A DNA stretch of 64,000 nucleotides from the NCBI GenBank assembly GCA_036788695.1, contig DAIQMY010000001.1, positions 236,134 through 300,133 of the forward strand, in the 5' to 3' direction. This document shows positions 5,132 through 22,206 of this stretch, in pieces. Each line of letters opens with the position of its first letter. Within the stretch, counting starts at the first letter, position 1. The DNA comes from Candidatus Levyibacteriota bacterium (GTDB lineage: Bacteria; Patescibacteriota; Microgenomatia; Levybacterales; GWA1-39-11). The notes beneath the pieces are model-generated. The model was not told where the DNA came from, did not search any database, and was given only the letters and a program-made list of their open reading frames with translations. The translations under genes and the position numbers were made by a program.

Positions 5132-5821
5132 CTAGTCTGTGTATGCAATTTTTTTGGGGGTAAACACTTTTTTTATTGATTCAACAACCCCTTTATGAGC
5201 AAGCTTATTATATAGCTGACGTGCTTCTCTTTCTGACGCATGATAGTCAAAGATACGACTTGTTTTTTTTGTAACACCTAACCCCAGATCGCCCAGAATT
5301 ACGTTCGCATTTCCCTCAGAGTCGACAATAAAAAAATAGGTATCTTCGTATATATTAAAGCCTGCTCTATCTGCTTTTTGTGAAATTTCAATAAGCTGCT
5401 TCTTAACATTTTGTTTATTTTTAATAACCTCTTCAAAATCTACTTTTTTTTCAAATATCTCATTCATAGAAAATACTAATTTCTTATTTCCCTCTGTCAG
5501 ATCTGTTACGATTATGCTTCTTGTGCCCTCAATTTGCCTAACGGTTAGAGGAACAGGAAGGTCAGCTTGTTTCAATTCCAGATAATGTTTTACATAATCG
5601 TCTGAAACAAAAAACTCCCATGCTCGTGCATATTTAGGATCTCTTTCAGCAAATTTTCCCGCATTTCTTTCTCTCCCATTTTTTATGAGTACTAATTCTT
5701 GGATTATATATCTTGCTTCGTTGCCACTTCCTATATAAGTACCGTTTCCCCTAAGGAATACTTCTGACTTACGTCCAGTAAGTGGCGAGATGAGTGTTTT
5801 TCTTTCGTGATTTTCTGGCAT
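5132..5821 (-). CDS. Hypothetical protein with a minimal protein-kinase-like motif order (Bud32/RIO/KdkA-like?)
   Basis: In kinase order it has a Gly-rich IGSGNEARY, then VLIK (VAIK-like Lys), then IVDSEGNANVIL (catalytic-loop-like D...N), then GDLGLG (DFG-like), at ~229 aa. There is no confident family assignment. Confidence 0.3.
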   Translation of the reverse strand: MPENHERKTLISPLTGRKSEVFLRGNGTYIGSGNEARYIIQELVLIKNGRERNAGKFAERDPKYARAWEFFVSDDYVKHYLELKQADLPVPLTVRQIEGTRSIIVTDLTEGNKKLVFSMNEIFEKKVDFEEVIKNKQNVKKQLIEISQKADRAGFNIYEDTYFFIVDSEGNANVILGDLGLGVTKKTSRIFDYHASEREARQLYNKLAHKGVVESIKKVFTPKKIAYTD

Positions 5822-16535: not shown

Positions 16536-17537
16536 ATGAAAATATCAATCTTTGAAGTTGAAAAATGGGAGGAAGACTTTTTAAAAAAATCTTTGCGTAG
16601 TTCTGATGAGTTATCGTTCTTTAATCATCCCCTTACTCTTTCAGACATAGATTCTATAAGAGACACAGATGCTATAATCATTTTTATCTATTCTTCTATA
16701 ACAAAAGAAATTCTTGATGCCTTACCTAATCTCAAATTTATCGCGACTATGTCAACAGGTTTTGATCACATTGATCTTTCAGTTTGCAAAGAAAAGAATA
16801 TACTTGTTAGTAATGTTTCAGGATATGGTGAAATTACCGTGGCGGAACATACCTTTAGCCTTCTCTTAGCTCTTTCTCACAGGCTTATAGAATCATACGA
16901 ACGAGTAAAAGAGGGATACTTCTCACCTGAGGGGCTAACCGGATTTGATTTATCTGGTAAAACGCTAGGTGTTGTTGGGGTGGGTAGTATTGGGACTCAC
17001 GTTATAGAAATAGCTCATGGATTCAACATGAATGTCTTAGGATATAAAAGAAGTCCTGATCCTGAACTTGAAAAAAGGTTTAATTTTAAAATTGTTGATC
17101 TTCCGACTCTTTATGCAAAGTCTGATATCATCTCACTTCATGTCCCATACACAAAAGAAACGCATCACATGATAAATGATGATGCACTTTCTCAGATGAA
17201 AGATAAAGTTGTTTTAATAAATACTGCAAGGGGCCCACTCATTGACACAACTGCAGTTCTTAAATATTTGGATAATGGCAAGTTAAGAGGAGTAGGTTTG
17301 GACGTGTGCGAAAACGAGCCAATGCTACGAGAAGAGAAGCAAATATTATCAAAGGAATTTAATAAAGAGGATCTCCTATGTATGCTTGAGGAAAAAATGC
17401 TTTTAAACTATAAAAATGTGATAATAACTCCACACAATGCATTTAATAGTAAGGAGGCATTAGAATTAATACTGCAAACAACCGTGGACAATATCTCAGG
17501 GTTTATCAATAATACTCCCAAGAATACGGTTTCCTAG
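16536..17537 (+). CDS. D-isomer-specific 2-hydroxyacid dehydrogenase (D-lactate dehydrogenase family)
   Basis: A Rossmann GxGxxG (GVVGVGSIGTHV), a catalytic His context (VIITPHNAFNS) and a family-typical length of 333 aa. Confidence 0.75.
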   Translation: MKISIFEVEKWEEDFLKKSLRSSDELSFFNHPLTLSDIDSIRDTDAIIIFIYSSITKEILDALPNLKFIATMSTGFDHIDLSVCKEKNILVSNVSGYGEITVAEHTFSLLLALSHRLIESYERVKEGYFSPEGLTGFDLSGKTLGVVGVGSIGTHVIEIAHGFNMNVLGYKRSPDPELEKRFNFKIVDLPTLYAKSDIISLHVPYTKETHHMINDDALSQMKDKVVLINTARGPLIDTTAVLKYLDNGKLRGVGLDVCENEPMLREEKQILSKEFNKEDLLCMLEEKMLLNYKNVIITPHNAFNSKEALELILQTTVDNISGFINNTPKNTVS

Positions 17538-17540
17538 TTT

Positions 17541-19613
17541 TTATAATAAGAAAGACTTTAATAGTCGTAGTCTGGTATAGAATGGTAGAGCTTTTATAAA
17601 AATGGCTCTCACAAGAGCCCTTCGTTTAGTAGCTCTTATTCCAATAAATATAGCTAGGAAAGTCATTATTAGATAATATACCCATAAATCATTTCTATAG
17701 TTATCCCCTTTTTCCATATATGCTCCAGCAATTTTAATTTCTTTCTTGCTACCCGTCTTGTTTCCGGTTTTTGTAGTTGCAGCCAATACTTTTCCATTTC
17801 CCTTAGAAGATACCATAAAATAACTTTCCGCCGTGGCTTCAACTACTGTATCTTTCCCTGTAGTGCCAGTTACATAGGAGAGCGCAGTATAATGTCCCGC
17901 AGGTGCATTATTTGTAAGAACTAACCCGGTTGTTAAGCGTTTTGTTTTTTGAGCTTCGATATCTTCAAGATCAAATGATGGTCCCCCCATAAATTCTCCA
18001 TCTTTGTAGAGCCCTATTAACAATTTTGCTCCATATATTTTTCCTGTTCCGTTATTTTTTGTGTCTACAAAAAATGTTACAGTATCTCCAGGATTTACAA
18101 ACTCTCCCACATTATTTTTATTTGTAACCGTAAGTTTTCCTCCGGATTCTGGATCCTTTATTTTTTCTTGACTATCACCATTTGATATTTGTTCTAATGA
18201 ATGTTCTTCTTGTGTTACTTCTGTAATAAATTTACTTGCGCCACCGATACTTCCTGACCAGTTTCCAAAAACGTTAATAAAAGCAAAAAAACCATTTGTT
18301 TTGAAAAAATTTGAGTTGATAAAGTTAATCAGTGAAACTGCAGAGTATGCATTTCCGGTTTGTATAAGTCCATCATTTCCATGAATAATGTTGGTCCCGG
18401 TATCTGCCTTTGTTTTAACGGTGTTTTTTACAATAGCTGTGTTCTCAGTTATAAGAGCAGTATCACAATCACAGTCATTATTATTATTTGAGAGGCTTAA
18501 GGTGTCTCCTCCATTTTGAGGTTCAAAACTATCCCACCCCAAAAAATTACCAGTCCATTTTCCTAGAACGTTTATAAATAGCTTTTGGAATAGTGCTCCG
18601 ACAGCATTTGTATTTACCATATCTACAATGTTTATAATGCTGTGTGAGGTGCCGGTCTTGATCATTGAAGAAGAGCTAGCTATATCTATGCTGTTGTTCC
18701 CGGTATTCGTATCAGCTGTTACATCATTTTCTATAAGTGCAATATTTTTCATGGTTGCAGATGAACCACAGGATGCACATTCTGTTTCTTCATGAAAGTC
18801 AGGAAGAATTATATTGCCTGAAAAGTCTCCAAATATATTAATGGTGACTATATGGATAACAGAGTCGACAACAGTGAAATTTGCTTTATTTACGAGTGAG
18901 ACTACAGAGTATGCATCCCCTGTTTTGATAAGGGCGTTTTCTCCTTCAGCTATTTCATTTCTTCCTGTAGACGCGGTGGCAAATACATCATTGTCAAGAT
19001 ACACATAGTTTTTTGCATCAGTTACAGAAACGTTAACAATCGGGTTTGTATTTTTATCCTGAGAGATGATCGTGTAGGCAAGATTAAATGGTGTAGACAA
19101 ATCTATACTTTCTGCATCGTCTACAAAGATATTAATAGTTTGATTTATCACCTGTGAATTAATTGAATTTGTGTTTACTGTGTTGTCTACAGACACGAGC
19201 GTTGTAGAATCGCCCGTTGTAATAGAAGAGCTTGAGTTCTGCTGTGCAGGTGAGGAGCTCTGAGGAGTTTCGTGAGAGTTACTTGAAGGTAAGTTAGATG
19301 AAGCCTCTTCAGCGTCCGGAGGAGTAAGCTCAGCAGAGGTGGTTGAAATATTTTCTCCTGTGTTAGATGCTCCCGCAGTTGTATCATGCGCTTCAGTTGT
19401 ATTTGCTTGTGTTGTGTTTTCTGCGGCTTCACTTGGAGATGGAGTGGGGGTAGTAGTTTGGGTTGGTGTTGGATCAGCTTGCTCTATTACAGTAGGCGTA
19501 GGGGTATCAGTTGGTGTTTCATCAAGCGCGTAGACTGTGAATGGCGAGATAGAATTGACTCCAATAACAAGAAATATAATAAAAAGTGCGAAATATCTTT
19601 TGAATCCTGCCAT
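17541..19613 (-). CDS. Cell-surface protein: signal peptide, T/P-rich linker, three internal ~65-aa repeats each preceded by a C-x-C motif, C-terminal TM anchor
   Basis: Has a signal (FALFIIFLVIGVNSISPFTVYA) and a PT-rich linker. The repeats centre on IKTGDAYSVVSLVNKAN / IKTGTSHSIINIVDMVN / IQTGNAYSAVSLINFIN, and each ends in INxFGxWSGN. CASCGSS and DCDCDT precede repeats 2 and 3. The C-terminus has a TM (LWVYYLIMTFLAIFIGI) and a basic tail. Confidence 0.5.
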   Translation of the reverse strand: MAGFKRYFALFIIFLVIGVNSISPFTVYALDETPTDTPTPTVIEQADPTPTQTTTPTPSPSEAAENTTQANTTEAHDTTAGASNTGENISTTSAELTPPDAEEASSNLPSSNSHETPQSSSPAQQNSSSSITTGDSTTLVSVDNTVNTNSINSQVINQTINIFVDDAESIDLSTPFNLAYTIISQDKNTNPIVNVSVTDAKNYVYLDNDVFATASTGRNEIAEGENALIKTGDAYSVVSLVNKANFTVVDSVIHIVTINIFGDFSGNIILPDFHEETECASCGSSATMKNIALIENDVTADTNTGNNSIDIASSSSMIKTGTSHSIINIVDMVNTNAVGALFQKLFINVLGKWTGNFLGWDSFEPQNGGDTLSLSNNNNDCDCDTALITENTAIVKNTVKTKADTGTNIIHGNDGLIQTGNAYSAVSLINFINSNFFKTNGFFAFINVFGNWSGSIGGASKFITEVTQEEHSLEQISNGDSQEKIKDPESGGKLTVTNKNNVGEFVNPGDTVTFFVDTKNNGTGKIYGAKLLIGLYKDGEFMGGPSFDLEDIEAQKTKRLTTGLVLTNNAPAGHYTALSYVTGTTGKDTVVEATAESYFMVSSKGNGKVLAATTKTGNKTGSKKEIKIAGAYMEKGDNYRNDLWVYYLIMTFLAIFIGIRATKRRALVRAIFIKALPFYTRLRLLKSFLL

Positions 19614-19657
19614 ATATTTTTTTATGTATAAAACGATTTGCCGCTATAAATCAGATC

Positions 19658-19687
19658 CTGAGGAGGAGAGTTTCCTCCCCTCCTCAG
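19658..19687 (-). promoter_or_regulatory. GC-rich stem-loop between the small and large repeat-protein genes (partial terminator or attenuator)
   Basis: CTGAGGAGG, a 12-nt loop, then CCTCCTCAG. The stem is a perfect 9 bp, with no clean U-tract after it on the minus strand. Confidence 0.4.
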
Positions 19688-19703
19688 AGAACTTACCAAA
19701 AAA

Positions 19704-20183
19704 CTATTCAACAACGTTTGTGTTAACAACGTTATTTACTGCTACTCCTGTTGAGGATGCACCTGTCATTGAAAGTTGTGCACCAAGAAGCGCAACGTTT
19801 GCGTTCTTTCCTGAGTTAGAAGTGCCTTTAACGTTTGTTACAACAAAAGCAGAATTTGCTTGTGTTGTATTTCCGTTTGCTACTCCAACGTTCAATTTAG
19901 GGCTAACACATCCACAACTTGTTTTGTTGTAGTTTACCTGTTGAGCTACACCTACGCTTGTAGTTGCTGCTCCGGTTGATGACCCTTGGATTCCTACTGC
20001 TGCTGCGTTAAGATTTTTCCCAGTGTTTGAGACTCCCTTAACGTTTGTAACAACAACTGCATTATTTGTTTGTGTTGTGTTTCCATTTAACGCACCAATA
20101 TTTACTGCAGCAAATGTTGGGGTTGCAGCGCCTAGCATTACTGCTCCAGCTGCTGCTGATACGACTAATTTTTTAAAATTCAT
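19704..20183 (-). CDS. Small secreted protein made of two tandem ~65-aa N/T/V-rich repeats (same module as the downstream large surface protein)
   Basis: Taking the real start as MNFKKLVV, it has a perfect SD (AAGGAGGTG) 9 nt upstream. The signal peptide ends ...TPTFA|A. The repeats are NIGALNGNTTQTNNAVVVTNVKGVSNTGKNLNAA and NVGVANGNTTQANSAFVVTNVKGTSNSGKNANVA, separated by SCGCVSP. Confidence 0.5.
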   Translation of the reverse strand: MNFKKLVVSAAAGAVMLGAATPTFAAVNIGALNGNTTQTNNAVVVTNVKGVSNTGKNLNAAAVGIQGSSTGAATTSVGVAQQVNYNKTSCGCVSPKLNVGVANGNTTQANSAFVVTNVKGTSNSGKNANVALLGAQLSMTGASSTGVAVNNVVNTNVVE

Positions 20184-20217
20184 ATATTTATTCACCTCCT
20201 TTTTTTTAATATTACGA

Positions 20218-20260
20218 AAAAAAATCGGCTGTGTTCCCATGGGAAGTAAAACCGATTTTA
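20218..20260 (-). terminator. Rho-independent-terminator-like hairpin + T8 tract (minus strand), lying in front of the repeat-protein SD
   Basis: On the minus strand it reads AAAATCGG-TTTTACTTCCCATGGGAACACAG-CCGATTTTTTTT. The loop contains a CCCATGGG palindrome. It lies downstream of the DUF2292 gene and 15 nt upstream of the SD of the next gene. Confidence 0.4.
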
Positions 20261-20412
20261 AGTAAGTAGGAAAGAATATTATTCATATTTTAAAAAAGGA
20301 TAAAAACCTACAAAAAAAAGACACTTCACCCGATAAAATCGGGATCAGTGCCTCCGTTAACGGCCAGCATTTCCTTGTTAAGGTAATTTATAAACTAATA
20401 TTAAGTTAATTG

Positions 20413-20613
20413 TCAATGCTCTGTTTGCATATCATACATGTTTTTTCCTGCGGCAACTAAGGGTTTCTTAATATTTTTTTCTGTAATTTGTGTTACTAAA
20501 AAATCCTGTACGCAAATCTCAACAGTGCCCCATCCACGGATATTCTGCAAAGAAGAAACAAGCTCATTGACTAGATCAGGAGTAATTTTTTTCGTAGAGT
20601 ATTTGTCTGCCAT
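20413..20613 (-). CDS. DUF2292 (YezD-like) small protein
   Basis: From the MADKY start (~66 aa) it reads ITPDLVNELVSSLQNIRGWGTVEICVQDFLVTQITEK. This matches the YezD/DUF2292 pattern (..L..i.yGsveivvqdgkvvqiek). Confidence 0.45.
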   Translation of the reverse strand: MADKYSTKKITPDLVNELVSSLQNIRGWGTVEICVQDFLVTQITEKNIKKPLVAAGKNMYDMQTEH

Positions 20614-20684
20614 GATGATATTGAAGGGCAGACATATCATCTAAAAATATAGCCTTTTGTCTGGTGGTTGTCAACTGGTAAATC

Positions 20685-21089
20685 TTATTTAAAAAATGAT
20701 TTAAGCATAATCTCAATATTTAACATGAATTGTTCTATGCCAGTTTTTTTTTCGTGTTTATTTTTTTTATTTTTATGAGTTGCCGTTGGTTTTTTTACTG
20801 TTTGAGTGCTTGTAATACTTGGAGGCTGAATAGTATTTCTGATTTGAGAAGATGTAGTAGATGAGTCTATCTTAATTTCTACCTTGCCATCCTTAAAGCT
20901 ATCTATAACCTTTTTTCCCCCGTTTGCCTCTATTGATATATGCGTTTCAGCTTTCCCCCCTGAAGTGTTGGTTTCAACGTATACAGATGTATTTGCGTCA
21001 CCTGTTGTGAAAGACTCAGCATAAGTATTTGAGAAAGAAAGAGAAAGAAGGACAAGGGGAAGTAGAAATAATATTTGTTTTTTATTCAT
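20685..21089 (-). CDS. Small secreted hypothetical protein (signal peptide, basic C-terminus)
   Basis: Starts with the signal peptide MNKKQILFLLPLVLLSLSFSNTYA|ESF. No domain is recognised. Confidence 0.4.
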   Translation of the reverse strand: MNKKQILFLLPLVLLSLSFSNTYAESFTTGDANTSVYVETNTSGGKAETHISIEANGGKKVIDSFKDGKVEIKIDSSTTSSQIRNTIQPPSITSTQTVKKPTATHKNKKNKHEKKTGIEQFMLNIEIMLKSFFK

Positions 21090-21165
21090 TTTTAGAAACA
21101 GTATGAATTATTTTATACTTCTTTCTTTTCTATTTTGTCAAGAAAGTTAAGGTTTTCAAGTTATA

Positions 21166-22206
21166 TTATCGTATGAACATTCCATCTCCAAACGAAAAAA
21201 ATCGAAATGTTTTCTCTTGTGCAACTTTATACAATCTCAATAATTGTTTCCTTCCGGTAAATGCTGCAACTAGCATAAGAAGGCTTGATTTTGGCACGTG
21301 AAAATTTGTGATGACTTGATCTGTGCATTTTAATTTTGTTTTTGCAGTTATAAATAGATTTGTTTTTCCACTCAGTTTTTGAACAATTCCATGAGAATCG
21401 GAGGAAGATTCGAGTGCCCTTACTACAGTTGTACCTATTGCGACTATGCTCCTTCCTTCTTTTCTTGCATTATTTAGAAGTTTTGCTGTAGCGGTATCAA
21501 TTTCATAAAATTCTTCATGTAATTTTTGTAGTTTATATTGCTCTTCACGTAAGGGAGCAAATGTTCCTAGGTTTACATGTAAAGTAATAAAGCATATTAA
21601 GTGCCCTTGTTTTTGTAGTTTTTTCATAAGGTGTCTTGTGAAGTGGAGGGATGCGGTAGGAGCAGCTACTGATCCTTCGTTTTTTGCAAAAACAGTCTGG
21701 TATTCTTCTCTTAATTTTTTCCCCTTTATAGTTGTATGTTTTATATATGGAGGCAGGGGTGTTATTCCAATTTCTTCAAACACTCGCAAGTAACTATTTA
21801 CAGGAAAGGATGGTTTTAGGGAATATTCTTTGTCCTGCTTTAATATAACTTTGAAGAAATATTCCCCTGCAGTTATTATTAATCCTTTTTCTAATTTTTT
21901 ATTTGCCCAGAAAATTAATTTTTCACCCTCTTTTCGTATGAATAGTAGGTCTACCTTCCCTCCCGTTGGTTTTTGTCCAATTACACGAGCAGGGATGACT
22001 TTTGTATTATTAAAAACTAAAACTGAATTAGGAGATAAGTAGTTGCCTAAATTTTTAAAAGTATCAACTGAAATATTTTTTGATTTTCTATCATAAACTA
22101 ACAGTTTTGCGCTGTCTCGTGGGTGTACCGGATTTTGGGCTATAAAAGATTCAGGTAATTTGTAATCATACTCTAATAGGATTTTTTCAAAATCAGATTT
22201 TACCAT
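21166..22206 (-). CDS. queA: S-adenosylmethionine:tRNA ribosyltransferase-isomerase
   Basis: The N-terminus (DFEKILLEYDYKLPESFIAQNPVHPRDSAKLLVY) and the overall 346-aa architecture match QueA. It overlaps tgt by 14 nt. Confidence 0.85.
   Translation of the reverse strand: MVKSDFEKILLEYDYKLPESFIAQNPVHPRDSAKLLVYDRKSKNISVDTFKNLGNYLSPNSVLVFNNTKVIPARVIGQKPTGGKVDLLFIRKEGEKLIFWANKKLEKGLIITAGEYFFKVILKQDKEYSLKPSFPVNSYLRVFEEIGITPLPPYIKHTTIKGKKLREEYQTVFAKNEGSVAAPTASLHFTRHLMKKLQKQGHLICFITLHVNLGTFAPLREEQYKLQKLHEEFYEIDTATAKLLNNARKEGRSIVAIGTTVVRALESSSDSHGIVQKLSGKTNLFITAKTKLKCTDQVITNFHVPKSSLLMLVAAFTGRKQLLRLYKVAQEKTFRFFSFGDGMFIR

What the first reader, a model, noticed from the sequence alone, without database searches (positions are those of the whole stretch)
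17541..20240. Two adjacent secreted proteins built from the same C-x-C + N/T/V-rich repeat module, arranged like a major/minor subunit operon
The 160-aa protein is two tandem copies of ...NGNTTQ(T/A)N(N/S)A(V/F)VVTNVKG(V/T)SN(T/S)GKN.N.A... separated by SCGCVSP. The 690-aa protein has three longer repeats that retain the same core (NTAIVKNTVKTKADTGTN, and IKTG.AYS..SL(V/I)N). Each is preceded by a C-x-C (CASCGSS, DCDCDT), and the protein ends in a TM anchor. Between the two genes sits a 9-bp GC-rich stem-loop. The small gene has a perfect SD (AAGGAGGTG). This mirrors the high-expression major subunit / hairpin / low-expression anchor layout of pilus or S-layer operons.
Basis: seen in the sequence. 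Interest (0 to 1): 0.65.

Follow-up and report, generated by a model that had tools for sequence, protein, structure and literature searches.

The report
Conserved surface-protein gene pair in Microgenomates
Two neighbouring genes of an uncultured ultra-small bacterium (Levybacteria, CPR) encode a small secreted protein with signals for very high expression and a membrane-anchored relative built from the same 53-residue module; the pair is conserved across the Microgenomates, has no known relatives, and is a candidate building block of their uncharacterised cell surface.

Summary
The 159-aa protein (19704-20183, minus) is a signal peptide plus two copies of a 53-aa N/V/A/G/T-rich module joined by C-G-C (halves E=1e-17). 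The 690-aa protein (17541-19613, minus) carries three full and one split copy, each extended by an 'INIFG' cap, then a CARDB/DUF11-like Ig domain, a TM helix and a basic tail. Pairwise similarity is marginal (E=0.01). Profiles settle it: hhalign E=4e-13, and a module HMM built from small proteins only scores 103 bits against at most 5.9 for shuffles.

The pair is conserved. A small gene lies directly upstream of the big gene in 47-48 of 49 loci. In 39 of 41 loci the small gene has a near-perfect AAAGGAGGTGA ribosome-binding site. In this window it is the only one of 46 genes with a strong one.

A GC-rich hairpin without a U-tract follows the small gene in nearly all loci. It is the only such hairpin in the 64 kb.

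No Pfam, NCBIfam or PDB relative exists, and every homolog is 'hypothetical'.

Best reading (inferred): an abundant secreted subunit assembles on a rare membrane-anchored paralog. This is the logic of short and long chaplins or CsgA and CsgB, without membership in those families. A pilus or S-layer identity is not shown.

The parts
19704..20183 (-). Small gene: 159-aa secreted protein with a signal peptide (aa 1-25, ...PTFA|A), module 1, C-G-C and module 2. The mature protein is 134 aa, and 80% of it is V, N, A, G, T or S.
   Evidence: The family has 379 representatives at 50% identity.
20193..20200 (-). Extended Shine-Dalgarno AGGAGGTG of the small gene, 9 nt before the ATG.
   Evidence: It is unique in the 64-kb window. 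It is the strongest SD of 46 genes, -13.1 kcal/mol against -7.7 for the next. It is conserved as AAAGGAGGTGA in 39 of 41 loci.
19920..20075 (-). Small protein module 1 (aa 37-88).
   Evidence: Module HMM E=4.6e-12; coordinates checked.
19908..19916 (-). C-G-C hinge between the two modules.
   Evidence: C90 and C92 are conserved in at least 90% of 91 family members. C-x-C is present in 69 of 91.
19710..19865 (-). Small protein module 2 (aa 107-158).
   Evidence: Module HMM E=1e-12.
19657..19688 (-). Intercistronic RNA hairpin: 13-14 pairs including one G.U, a GAAA loop and no U-tract. It starts 16 nt after the small gene's stop codon.
   Evidence: the only hairpin with >=9 pairs and >=6 GC pairs in 64 kb, and only on the coding strand. 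Equivalent hairpins occur in nearly all related loci, with MFE z-scores of about -4 to -8.
17541..19613 (-). Big gene: 690-aa type-I membrane protein. In order it has a signal peptide (aa 1-29), a P/T/S-rich linker holding a split module, three modules each with an INIFG cap, an Ig-like domain, a TM helix and a basic tail.
   Evidence: At least 231 homologs were found, all 'hypothetical' and without a meaningful Pfam domain (one carries a lone PF05887 mark).
19164..19409 (-). Split module 0. The first half (aa 69-88, QANTTEAHDTTAGASNTGEN) and the second half (aa 127-150, SITTGDSTTLVSVDNTVNTN) are separated by a low-complexity linker.
   Evidence: second half E=3e-8; first half weak, 0.027. The same split is seen in the family consensus.
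18867..19013 (-). Big protein module 1 (aa 201-249), followed by the cap VIHIVTINIFGDFSGNIIL (18804-18860).
   Evidence: E=5.9e-13; AF2 pLDDT 82-93.
18600..18785 (-). C-A-S-C motif (aa 279-282) followed by module 2 (aa 288-338).
   Evidence: E=1.5e-9. hhalign aligns this Cys pair with the small protein's CGC. C282 is nearly invariant.
18309..18476 (-). C-D-C motif followed by module 3 (aa 390-435).
   Evidence: E=5.5e-15.
17811..18146 (-). C-terminal Ig-like domain (aa 490-601), CARDB/DUF11-like.
   Evidence: Foldseek hit to the CARDB domain 3idu, E=2.7e-4, TM 0.66-0.69. Distant multi-module relatives carry Pfam DUF11 in the same position. pLDDT is about 90-96.
17544..17702 (-). TM helix (LWVYYLIMTFLAIFIGI) and a conserved basic cytoplasmic tail (RRALVRAIFIKALPFYTRLRLLKSFLL).
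   Evidence: AF2 helix at 638-663. The tail consensus IR..R.R..L...F...R...LR.FL is conserved in the family.
20413..20613 (-). Conserved upstream gene: a 66-aa DUF2292-like protein without a signal peptide (GWGTVEICVQDF.VTQITEKNIKKP). Its start is placed at MADKYSTKK by homology.
   Evidence: Pfam DUF2292 E=4e-4 here, and 23.8 bits against a cut-off of 22 in L003. It is present upstream of the small gene in about 27 related loci.
20685..21089 (-). Conserved upstream gene: a 134-aa secreted protein. After the signal peptide it starts with a half-module-like F-T-T-G-D-A-N-T-S-V-Y-V-E-T-N and then IEANGGKK.
   Evidence: Homologs occupy the same position in about 19 loci. Similarity to the module is only weak.
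20311..20350 (-). Canonical terminator-like hairpin plus U8 after the DUF2292-like gene.
   Evidence: Read from the sequence. It shows that this genome does use U-tract terminators, unlike the small-big hairpin.
20217..20259 (-). Hairpin plus U8 in the leader of the small gene, ending about 17 nt before the SD.
   Evidence: It is conserved in the close relatives L006 and L007. Its function was not tested.

Best explanation
This is the core of a conserved cell-surface cassette of Microgenomatia (CPR/Patescibacteria).

The small gene makes an abundant 13-kDa protein with a Sec-type signal peptide. It consists of two 53-aa beta modules (consensus N.A.V.N.V.T.ANTG.N......I.TG.A.A...V.N.VNTN.V) joined by a C-x-C hinge.

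The next gene makes a rarer paralog fixed in the membrane by a C-terminal helix. Its ectodomain presents three and a half copies of the same module on a P/T-rich stalk above an Ig-like domain.

Proposed mechanism:
1. The anchored protein acts as the cell-bound base or nucleator.
2. The small protein's uncapped modules add to it and to one another by homotypic beta-sheet contacts.
3. The Cys pairs possibly cross-link or metal-bridge the subunits.
4. The result is a surface fibre or coat.

The stoichiometry is written into the DNA. The small gene has the only strong ribosome-binding site in the region. A stable hairpin without a U-tract right after it protects, or partly ends, the small-gene transcript before the big gene.

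Shown: homology of the two proteins, a signal peptide read in each and the predicted C-terminal membrane helix, conserved synteny, the conserved SD asymmetry, and the conserved hairpin.
Inferred: abundance, co-assembly, polymer formation, the role of the Cys pairs, and the mode of action of the hairpin.
For: Homology of the modules:
- hhalign E=4.3e-13.
- The module HMM gives 103 bits against at most 5.9 for shuffles.
- The small-family profile also hits 400-1083-aa multi-module proteins in 4-5 stretches.

Synteny: the small gene is directly upstream on the same strand in 47 of 49 loci with enough flank, plus a divergent small homolog in L058. NCBI locus tags are adjacent. The lineages are Levy-, Davies-, Gottesman-, Woese-, Beckwith-, Curtiss- and Amesbacteria, plus one Paceibacterota.

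Expression asymmetry:
- SD duplex energy has a median of -13.2 kcal/mol for small against -1.1 for big, Wilcoxon p=3e-8.
- The small gene is the single strong-SD gene among 46 in the window.

Hairpin:
- MFE z-scores are -4 to -8 in about 40 loci.
- 27 of 63 strong sense-strand hairpins fall in the 1.1% of sequence between small and big.
- There are 54 G.U pairs, so the structure is specific to the mRNA strand.
- It is unique in the 64-kb window.

Architecture:
- AF2 models the capped modules of the big protein confidently as all-beta (pLDDT 80-95).
- The cap-less small protein stays at pLDDT 60 despite a 91-sequence alignment. This is consistent with a fold that needs partners.
- The composition (80% V, N, A, G, T, S) and the alternating conserved face N-A-V-N-V-T-A fit a packing interface.
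- The Ig-like CARDB/DUF11 domain and the TM anchor are typical of surface proteins.

Neighbourhood: other surface-fibre genes lie next to the cassette in several lineages. These are TasA/camelysin-like Peptidase_M73 genes, an S24 peptidase (weak Pfam hit) fused to an LTD domain, and a sortase.
Against: - There is no direct evidence of expression level, polymerisation or small-big contact.
- The 3-D arrangement of the module could not be inspected and no multimer prediction could be run.
- No structural match to any known fibre subunit was found. The only Foldseek hit of the low-confidence small model was the FapC amyloid at E=2.1, which is not significant.
- No dedicated assembly or export genes are conserved next to the pair.
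- The low pLDDT of the small protein could simply reflect a difficult target.
- The hairpin might act in another way, for example in translational control. Formal covariation on an alignment was inconclusive because the registers differ.
- Conserved adjacency of paralogs can also arise from tandem duplication without physical interaction.
Confidence: 0.45

Rival explanations
1. The two proteins are independent surface or secreted proteins. They are paralogs that stay adjacent after a duplication but do not co-assemble. The big one is an adhesin or envelope protein. The small one is a soluble secreted factor, for example a binder of host surface, polysaccharide, mineral or metal through its Asn/Thr-rich faces and Cys pair.
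For: Homology and secretion signals are shown, but no interaction is. CPR genomes carry many lineage-specific surface proteins. The Ig-like CARDB/DUF11 domain is common in adhesins. The small protein has no anchor or sorting signal.
Against: Near-universal adjacency in fixed order and on the same strand across deeply diverged classes (about 48 of 49 loci), together with a conserved intercistronic RNA element, points to co-regulated stoichiometry rather than drift after duplication. The cap present after every big-protein module is absent from all small proteins. This suggests an unsatisfied interface in the small protein.
Confidence: 0.27
2. It is a two-component S-layer-type coat. The big protein is the membrane-anchored stalk and the small protein is a lattice or accessory component. 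Functionally this resembles archaeal SlaB/SlaA or C-terminally anchored S-layer glycoproteins.
For: - The big protein has a C-terminal TM anchor, a P/T-rich (possibly glycosylated) linker and Ig-like domains.
- The small gene carries hallmarks of very high expression.
- From my own knowledge: Luef et al. 2015 (Nat Commun) reported an S-layer on ultra-small groundwater cells that included OP11.
- The literature states that the CPR envelope remains unclear (PMC5220378).
Against: A 13-kDa subunit is very small for a lattice former. There is no SLH, S-layer or related Pfam/NCBIfam signature. No lattice evidence exists. This reading overlaps with the best explanation and differs only in geometry (2-D coat versus fibre).
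Confidence: 0.15
3. It is a receptor-ligand or signalling pair. The small secreted protein is a ligand or decoy for the homologous ectodomain of the big protein. The conserved cytoplasmic tail of the big protein passes a signal inward, possibly to the DUF2292-like protein.
For: The basic cytoplasmic tail is conserved in the big family. A cytoplasmic DUF2292-like gene is conserved in the cassette in about 27 loci.
Against: The tail is only about 27 aa and has no recognisable signalling domain. An extreme ribosome-binding site fits a structural protein better than a signal. The repetitive N/V/T/G composition is atypical for ligands.
Confidence: 0.06
4. The similarity is a compositional or low-complexity artefact and the gene pair is a chance neighbourhood.
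For: Pairwise BLASTP is only marginal, E=0.01-0.04. HMM bias terms are high for the small protein.
Against: - Profile-profile E=4.3e-13 with collinear modules and the Cys motif.
- Shuffles score at most 5.9 bits against 103 for the real sequence.
- Among 3627 six-frame ORFs from 66 sequences, the small HMM hit almost only the syntenic ORFs.
- Synteny holds in about 48 of 49 loci.
Confidence: 0.01

Closest known systems
Streptomyces chaplins (long ChpA-C and short ChpD-H); comparison from my own knowledge
   Same: The host is a monoderm. Short secreted proteins made of a domain of about 50 aa exist alongside longer, cell-anchored paralogs that carry several copies of the same domain. A conserved Cys pair is present. 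The small hydrophobic/Asn/Gly/Val-rich composition is similar. In chaplins the short forms polymerise into surface fibres that the long forms tether.
   Different: There is no sequence relationship, and Pfam Chaplin is not hit. Anchoring here is by a C-terminal TM helix, not by sortase and LAXTG. The small protein has two modules with the Cys pair between them. The modules in the anchored protein carry an extra INIFG cap. The two genes are always adjacent with an intercistronic hairpin. Polymerisation is not shown.
Curli CsgA/CsgB (and Fap FapC/FapB) functional amyloids; comparison from my own knowledge
   Same: A major subunit and a homologous cell-bound nucleator are encoded side by side. 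Both show imperfect tandem repeats rich in N/Q, G, A, S and T with strand-turn-strand periodicity.
   Different: Curlin_rpt and Fap families are not hit. The only FapC structural hit is non-significant, E=2.1. There is no CsgG/E/F-type export machinery and no outer membrane. The repeat is 53 aa with long predicted strands, whereas curlin repeats are about 22 aa. The gene order is reversed, with the major subunit first.
TasA/TapA (Peptidase_M73/camelysin family) biofilm fibres
   Same: A secreted major fibre subunit and an anchoring or accessory protein in monoderms. Genuine TasA-like genes, also with strong SDs, sit next to this cassette in some Microgenomatia.
   Different: Neither protein of the pair matches Peptidase_M73. 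The signal peptides lack the A-F-F-S-D-x-E motif seen in the neighbouring TasA-like proteins. The module architecture differs.
Major-pilin gene, hairpin, minor/anchor-gene operons (for example the pap and fim operons) and intercistronic mRNA-stabilising hairpins (the Rhodobacter puf operon, the malE-malF REP element); from my own knowledge
   Same: A stable stem-loop lies directly after the gene whose product is needed in excess, followed by genes needed in smaller amounts.
   Different: No pilin, usher, chaperone or sortase components are part of the conserved cassette. The hairpin lacks a U-tract, while ordinary terminators in the same genome have one. Its action was not tested.
CARDB / DUF11 Ig-like surface domains
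   Same: The C-terminal domain of the big protein (aa 490-601) superposes on the CARDB domain 3idu, E=2.7e-4, TM about 0.67. Distant multi-module relatives hit Pfam DUF11 in the same position.
   Different: The window protein itself does not reach any Pfam threshold. This domain is only an accessory part and not the repeated module in question.

Membership tests
Curli (CsgA/CsgB, Pfam Curlin_rpt) | Curlin repeat sequence signature (S-x5-Q-x-G-x-G-N-x-A-x3-Q) detectable by the Pfam model. | tested here: not met
   No Curlin_rpt hit at E<=1 for either protein and none among 91 small-family members at E<=0.01.
Curli (CsgA/CsgB) | Dedicated secretion and assembly genes (csgG, csgE, csgF) in the locus. 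| tested here: not met
   The conserved neighbours are only a DUF2292-like protein and a secreted protein of about 135 aa. The flanks in the window are queA, tgt and a 2-hydroxyacid dehydrogenase.
Functional amyloid in general (works-like claim) | Cross-beta fibre formation, dye binding and detergent resistance. | not testable with these tools
   This needs recombinant protein. Only composition and the predicted all-beta structure are available.
Chaplins (Pfam Chaplin) | Chaplin domain signature, and sortase LAXTG anchoring of the long forms. | tested here: not met
   No Pfam hit. The big protein ends in a TM helix and a basic tail, not a sorting signal.
TasA/camelysin (Peptidase_M73) | Peptidase_M73 domain and a SipW-type signal peptide. 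| tested here: not met
   No hit for the small or big protein. Neighbouring genes in L033, L037 and L047 do hit it.
Sortase-assembled Gram-positive pili | A C-terminal LPXTG-type sorting signal on the subunits, and a pilin-specific sortase in the operon. | tested here: not met
   The small protein ends ...VVNTNVVE and the big protein ends in a TM helix plus tail. A sortase is nearby in only one locus examined (L003).
Type IV pilins | An N-terminal class III signal peptide (G|F-x-x-x-E) and a hydrophobic alpha-helix. | tested here: not met
   Both proteins have ordinary Sec-type signal peptides with A-x-A-like cleavage sites (PTFA|A and VYA|L). There are no pilin Pfam or NCBIfam hits.
S-layer proteins | Known S-layer or SLH domains, and formation of a 2-D lattice. 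| tested here: inconclusive
   No SLH or S-layer family hit. S-layer proteins are very diverse in sequence, and lattice formation cannot be tested here.
CARDB/DUF11 Ig-like domain (C-terminal domain of the big protein only) | Ig-like beta-sandwich fold that superposes on CARDB, plus the Pfam signature. | tested here: inconclusive
   The fold matches (3idu, E=2.7e-4, TM 0.66-0.69) and distant relatives hit DUF11. The window protein itself has no Pfam hit.
DUF2292 (upstream 66-aa protein) | Pfam PF10055 score above the gathering cut-off of 22 bits. | tested here: inconclusive
   The window protein scores 20.4 bits, just below. The L003 ortholog scores 23.8 bits, above, and the L001 ortholog 19.1 bits.
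Intrinsic (rho-independent) terminator, for the small-big hairpin | A GC-rich stem-loop immediately followed by a U-tract. | tested here: not met
   The stem is present but its tail is AUCUGAUUUA. Of the 27 loci with a contiguous stem, the listed tails show a run of four U only in L037. True hairpin+U8 terminators exist nearby in the same window.

The most novel reading that the evidence does not exclude
The pair is the subunit and nucleator/anchor of a previously unknown, CPR-specific extracellular polymer. That polymer would be a new fold class of functional-amyloid-like or Cys/metal-bridged beta fibre or coat. It would form the major surface structure, the unexplained 'S-layer' or envelope coat, of Microgenomates cells. 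Its stoichiometry would be set by a conserved intercistronic RNA hairpin.
Probability: 0.3. Interest if true: 0.78.

Novelty: new variant of a known kind. Interest (0 to 1): 0.58.

Why it matters
The cell envelope of CPR/Patescibacteria is essentially uncharacterised. [quoted passage not shown]

This cassette supplies a concrete, testable candidate:
- The small gene has the best translation signal in its neighbourhood.
- A membrane-anchored paralog always follows it.
- The pair is conserved across at least seven Microgenomatia lineages and is absent from all curated family libraries.

If the small protein polymerises on the anchored one, this would be a new family of bacterial surface polymers. 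It would also give a handle (antibodies, tags, cryo-ET assignment) for studying how these ultra-small, probably host-dependent cells build their surface and attach.

The conserved hairpin without a U-tract is also a clean case for studying how gene dosage within an operon is set in genomes that otherwise barely use Shine-Dalgarno sequences.

Tried and rejected
- Pfam and NCBIfam scans of both proteins found nothing credible. The DUF7922 hit (E=0.029) was not seen at E<=0.01 in any of the 91 family members and was dropped as spurious. The NCBIfam hits were noise.
- The PDB sequence profile search matched only signal peptides (the PelB leaders of nanobody constructs).
- Foldseek against the PDB with the big model found only the Ig-like domain. 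With the low-confidence small model it found only FapC at E=2.1, which is not significant. The BFVD viral library gave only DUF11/Ig-type hits.
- Exact look-up of P0003 found no contig.
- A locus search with the small-family alignment failed for lack of a conserved stretch. The big-family alignment was used instead.
- Rfam found no family in 17000-21500.
- The inverted-repeat tool did not list the hairpin among its 25 longest, and a first strict Watson-Crick scan missed it because of its G.U pair. A scan that allows G.U found it as unique.
- RNAalifold on 21 excised hairpins gave a poor alignment and only weak covariation (-0.5 kcal/mol). I treat this as inconclusive. The argument rests on per-locus folding z-scores and positional enrichment.
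- Six literature searches (CPR surface proteins, S-layer/pili cryo-ET, DUF2292, metaproteomics, ultra-small groundwater cells) found no description of this family.
- Pilus-operon and classical-terminator readings were considered and rejected on the membership tests.

Full report
**What is in the window**

Both genes lie on the minus strand.
- The small CDS is 19704-20183 and encodes 159 aa starting MNFKK. The longer 178-aa ORF begins upstream of the ribosome-binding site, and homologs start at MNFKK or MNIKK.
- AGGAGGTG sits at 20193-20200, nine bases before the ATG.
- The big CDS is 17541-19613 and encodes 690 aa.
- The flanking genes are ordinary housekeeping genes: a ClpB-type AAA ATPase and a D-2-hydroxyacid dehydrogenase on one side, queA and tgt on the other.
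- The big protein is 100% identical to a 'hypothetical protein' of a Candidatus Levybacteria MAG.

**Checking the repeat claim**

The two halves of the small protein match at E=1e-17, with 63% identity over 49 aa, and are separated by S-C-G-C-V.

Pairwise BLASTP between small and big is only marginal. The best hit is E=0.010 over 19 aa, with 0.037 over 52 aa.

Profiles resolve the question:
- An exhaustive HMM search with the small protein and three relatives found 379 cluster representatives. Most are full-length proteins of 145-175 aa. The rest are 400-1083-aa proteins matched in 4-5 stretches.
- hhalign of the small family against a 63-sequence alignment of the big family gives 97.9% probability and E=4.3e-13. 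The two small modules and the Cys motif between them align collinearly with big residues 199-339.
- A 53-position module HMM built from small-family proteins only has the consensus TIKNSAFVKNNVNTKANTGDNSIGGGDVGGGSITTGDAGAGSDVTNVVNTNVV. It hits the big protein at 201-249 (6e-13), 288-338 (1.5e-9), 390-435 (5.5e-15), and a half-module at 127-150 (3e-8). The matching first half lies weakly at 69-88, across a low-complexity linker.
- The real repeat region scores 103 bits. The best of 500 residue shuffles scores 5.9.

The similarity is therefore real homology and not composition.

**Anatomy of the two proteins**

The mature small protein is 134 aa. Eighty percent of it is V, N, A, G, T or S. It has six Lys, one Glu and exactly two Cys.

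In 91 family members the conserved positions fall on one face of the predicted strands (N.A.V.N.V.T.A, then NTG.N, then I.TG.A.A...V.N.VNTN.V). The Cys pair is conserved in at least 90% of them, as C-x-C in 69 of 91.

In the big family every module is followed by a hydrophobic segment of about 25 aa (IHIVTINIFG.L.GNIILP or FINIFG.W.G). No small protein has this segment. The Cys pairs in the big family are typically C-x-x-C.

Structure prediction gave the following:
- AF2 with the 63-sequence alignment models the capped modules as all-beta with pLDDT 80-95.
- The P/T/S-rich linkers are disordered.
- Residues 490-601 form a confident Ig-like domain.
- Residues 638-663 form a helix.
- The Ig-like domain matches the CARDB domain 3idu (E=2.7e-4, TM about 0.67). 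Distant multi-module relatives carry Pfam DUF11 in the same place.
- The small protein alone, with a 91-sequence alignment, reaches only pLDDT 60.

**No known relatives**

- Pfam, NCBIfam and PDB sequence searches find nothing for the module.
- Foldseek against the PDB and BFVD finds only the Ig-like domain.
- The one hit of the weak small model (FapC amyloid, E=2.1) is not significant.
- All homologs with a source name are 'hypothetical protein' from Levybacteria, Daviesbacteria, Microgenomates or Patescibacteria.

**Conservation of the gene pair**

Three neighbourhoods fetched by exact protein look-up each showed a two-module C-G-C protein about 100 nt upstream of the big gene.

A scan of one genome per species with the big-family alignment gave 60 loci. 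They come from Levy-, Davies-, Gottesman-, Woese-, Beckwith-, Curtiss- and Amesbacteria, and one Paceibacterota. Several records carry placeholder titles such as 'uncultured Gammaproteobacteria'.

HMM searches of all six-frame ORFs gave these results:
- A small-family gene lies directly upstream on the same strand in 47 of the 49 loci with more than 700 nt of upstream sequence.
- One of the two exceptions, L058, has a divergent 177-aa two-module protein with C-T-M-C in that position.
- Further upstream, about 27 loci carry a very conserved DUF2292-like protein without a signal peptide.
- About 19 loci carry a secreted protein of about 135 aa that begins with a half-module-like I-T-T-G-D-A...V-E-T-N. 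Both genes are present in the window at 20413-20613 and 20685-21089.

**Expression signals**

In 39 of 41 loci the small gene is preceded by AAAGGAGGTGA at a fixed distance.
- The median anti-SD duplex energy is -13.2 kcal/mol for the small gene and -1.1 for the big gene.
- The small gene is the stronger in 40 of 41 loci, Wilcoxon p=3e-8.
- In the window the small gene is the only one of 46 genes with a strong SD: -13.1, against -7.7 for the next and a median of -0.45.

The asymmetry therefore reflects a special boost to the small gene. This genome mostly lacks SDs and often has -10-like boxes immediately before start codons.

**The intercistronic hairpin**

The stem-loop between the genes (19657-19688) has 13-14 pairs, one of them G.U, and a GAAA loop. 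It is followed by AUCUGAUUUA.
- It is the only hairpin with at least 9 contiguous pairs and at least 6 G-C pairs in the whole 64 kb. It qualifies only on the coding strand.
- Across the related loci, the gap between small and big (median about 90 nt) folds with z-scores of about -4 to -8 in about 40 cases.
- Under a strict contiguous-stem rule, 27 of 43 loci have such a hairpin in the gap.
- Those 27 are 43% of all strong sense-strand hairpins, in 1.1% of the sequence.
- The median stem is 14 pairs and starts 17 nt after the stop codon.
- There are 54 G.U pairs in total. In the tails listed, a run of four U follows the stem only in L037.
- Ordinary hairpin+U8 terminators occur a few hundred bases away in the same window. 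The element is therefore not this genome's standard terminator.
- Rfam has no match. A formal covariation count on an alignment of excised hairpins was inconclusive.

**Interpretation**

The following are shown:
- two homologous proteins, each with an N-terminal Sec-type signal peptide, one of them with a predicted C-terminal membrane helix;
- fixed gene order across a deep radiation;
- a conserved, exceptional translation signal on the small gene;
- a conserved mRNA-strand hairpin between the genes.

From these I infer that the small protein is made in large excess over the big one. I also infer that the two act together at the cell surface.

The most economical mechanism is that the anchored protein presents modules that seed or tether assembly of the uncapped small-protein modules into a fibre or coat. 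The Cys pairs may link subunits. The hairpin may protect the small-gene message or stop part of the transcription.

This is the logic of short and long chaplins and of CsgA and CsgB. Every family-membership test that could be run was negative, so it is a new family that may work like those systems. I put 0.45 on co-assembly, 0.27 on independent surface or secreted functions, and 0.15 on an S-layer-type coat. A signalling pair and an artefact take the remainder.

**Verdict**

The pilus or S-layer label is not supported as membership. The family is unannotated and specific to Microgenomatia and Patescibacteria in everything retrieved here. It is of moderate to good interest as a candidate for the unknown CPR surface structure.

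Noticed in passing
window 20413-20613 (-); L001 3955-4149; L003 3933-4100: A very conserved DUF2292-like protein of 55-75 aa with no signal peptide (GWGSVEI.IQDF.V.QITEKNIKKP) sits upstream of the small gene in about 27 loci. In the window it has a near-consensus promoter-like site (TTGACA-17-TATATT, 20646-20674). Its role in a surface-protein cassette is unexplained.
   Followed up: partly
window 20685-21089 (-); L001 3460-3891; L003 2814-3221: A secreted protein of about 135 aa is conserved at the head of the cassette in about 19 loci. It starts with a half-module-like I/F-T-T-G-D-A..V-E-T-N, then IEVEANGEKK, a low-complexity stretch and a C-terminal amphipathic helix. Its similarity to the module is weak (conditional E about 1e-3).
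   Followed up: partly
window 20217-20259 (-): A hairpin followed by U8 lies inside the leader of the small gene, about 17 nt before the SD. It is conserved in the close relatives L006 and L007. It could be an attenuator or a 5' stabiliser. Many other loci have a hairpin plus U-tract 40-80 nt upstream of the small gene.
   Followed up: partly
whole window (46 gene starts): Most genes have no Shine-Dalgarno sequence (median duplex -0.45 kcal/mol). Several have TATAAT-like boxes 7-12 nt before the start codon, for example at 5821, 23329, 24265 and 11080. This suggests widespread leaderless or short-leader mRNAs in this Levybacteria genome.
   Followed up: no
L033 6628-7560 and 7706-8752; L037 7755-8351; L047 8380-9012; L001 2103-3170: TasA/camelysin-like (Peptidase_M73) genes lie within a few kb of the cassette in Woese-, Curtiss- and Levybacteria loci. 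The three downstream ones also have strong AGGAGGTG-type SDs. L001 also has a protein with a weak Peptidase_S24 hit and an LTD domain, and L003 has a sortase. These loci look like surface-structure islands.
   Followed up: partly
L003 1712-2179: A 155-aa protein consists of a signal peptide, a half-module (TTTGDATSTTVVETQLNTN), C-D-C, a P/T-rich linker and a C-terminal TM helix. It is encoded next to a sortase gene. The half-module plus Cys pair seems to be a portable unit.
   Followed up: no
L058 3373-3903; L061 1919-2452: A divergent two-module small protein (177 aa, C-T-M-C hinge, motif SGDN instead of NTG.N) lies upstream of 939-951-aa big-family proteins. It was missed, or only weakly detected, by the small-family HMM.
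   Followed up: partly
small-big hairpins in window 19657-19688 and loci L001-L063: The hairpin arms are consistently asymmetric. The 5' arm is purine-rich and SD-like (GGGGAGRG, containing GGAGG). The 3' arm is pyrimidine-rich and anti-SD-like (CYCUCCCC). It is unknown whether this reflects ribosome interaction or only a stable stem.
   Followed up: no
L007, L008, L015 and others; L014; L027; L064: Many contigs that carry this Patescibacteria-type cassette are titled 'uncultured Gammaproteobacteria'. Single ones are titled Bathyarchaeia, Bacteroidetes or Bacteroidales. These are probably placeholder names or binning errors in the public records.
   Followed up: no
L018 and L020 (MAG SMAG_U14553); L017 and L029 (MAG DBS1-1.bin22); L024 662-1282; L039 4691-5278: Some genomes carry two copies of the cassette. 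A few loci have an extra small-family gene on the opposite strand or downstream of the big gene.
   Followed up: no
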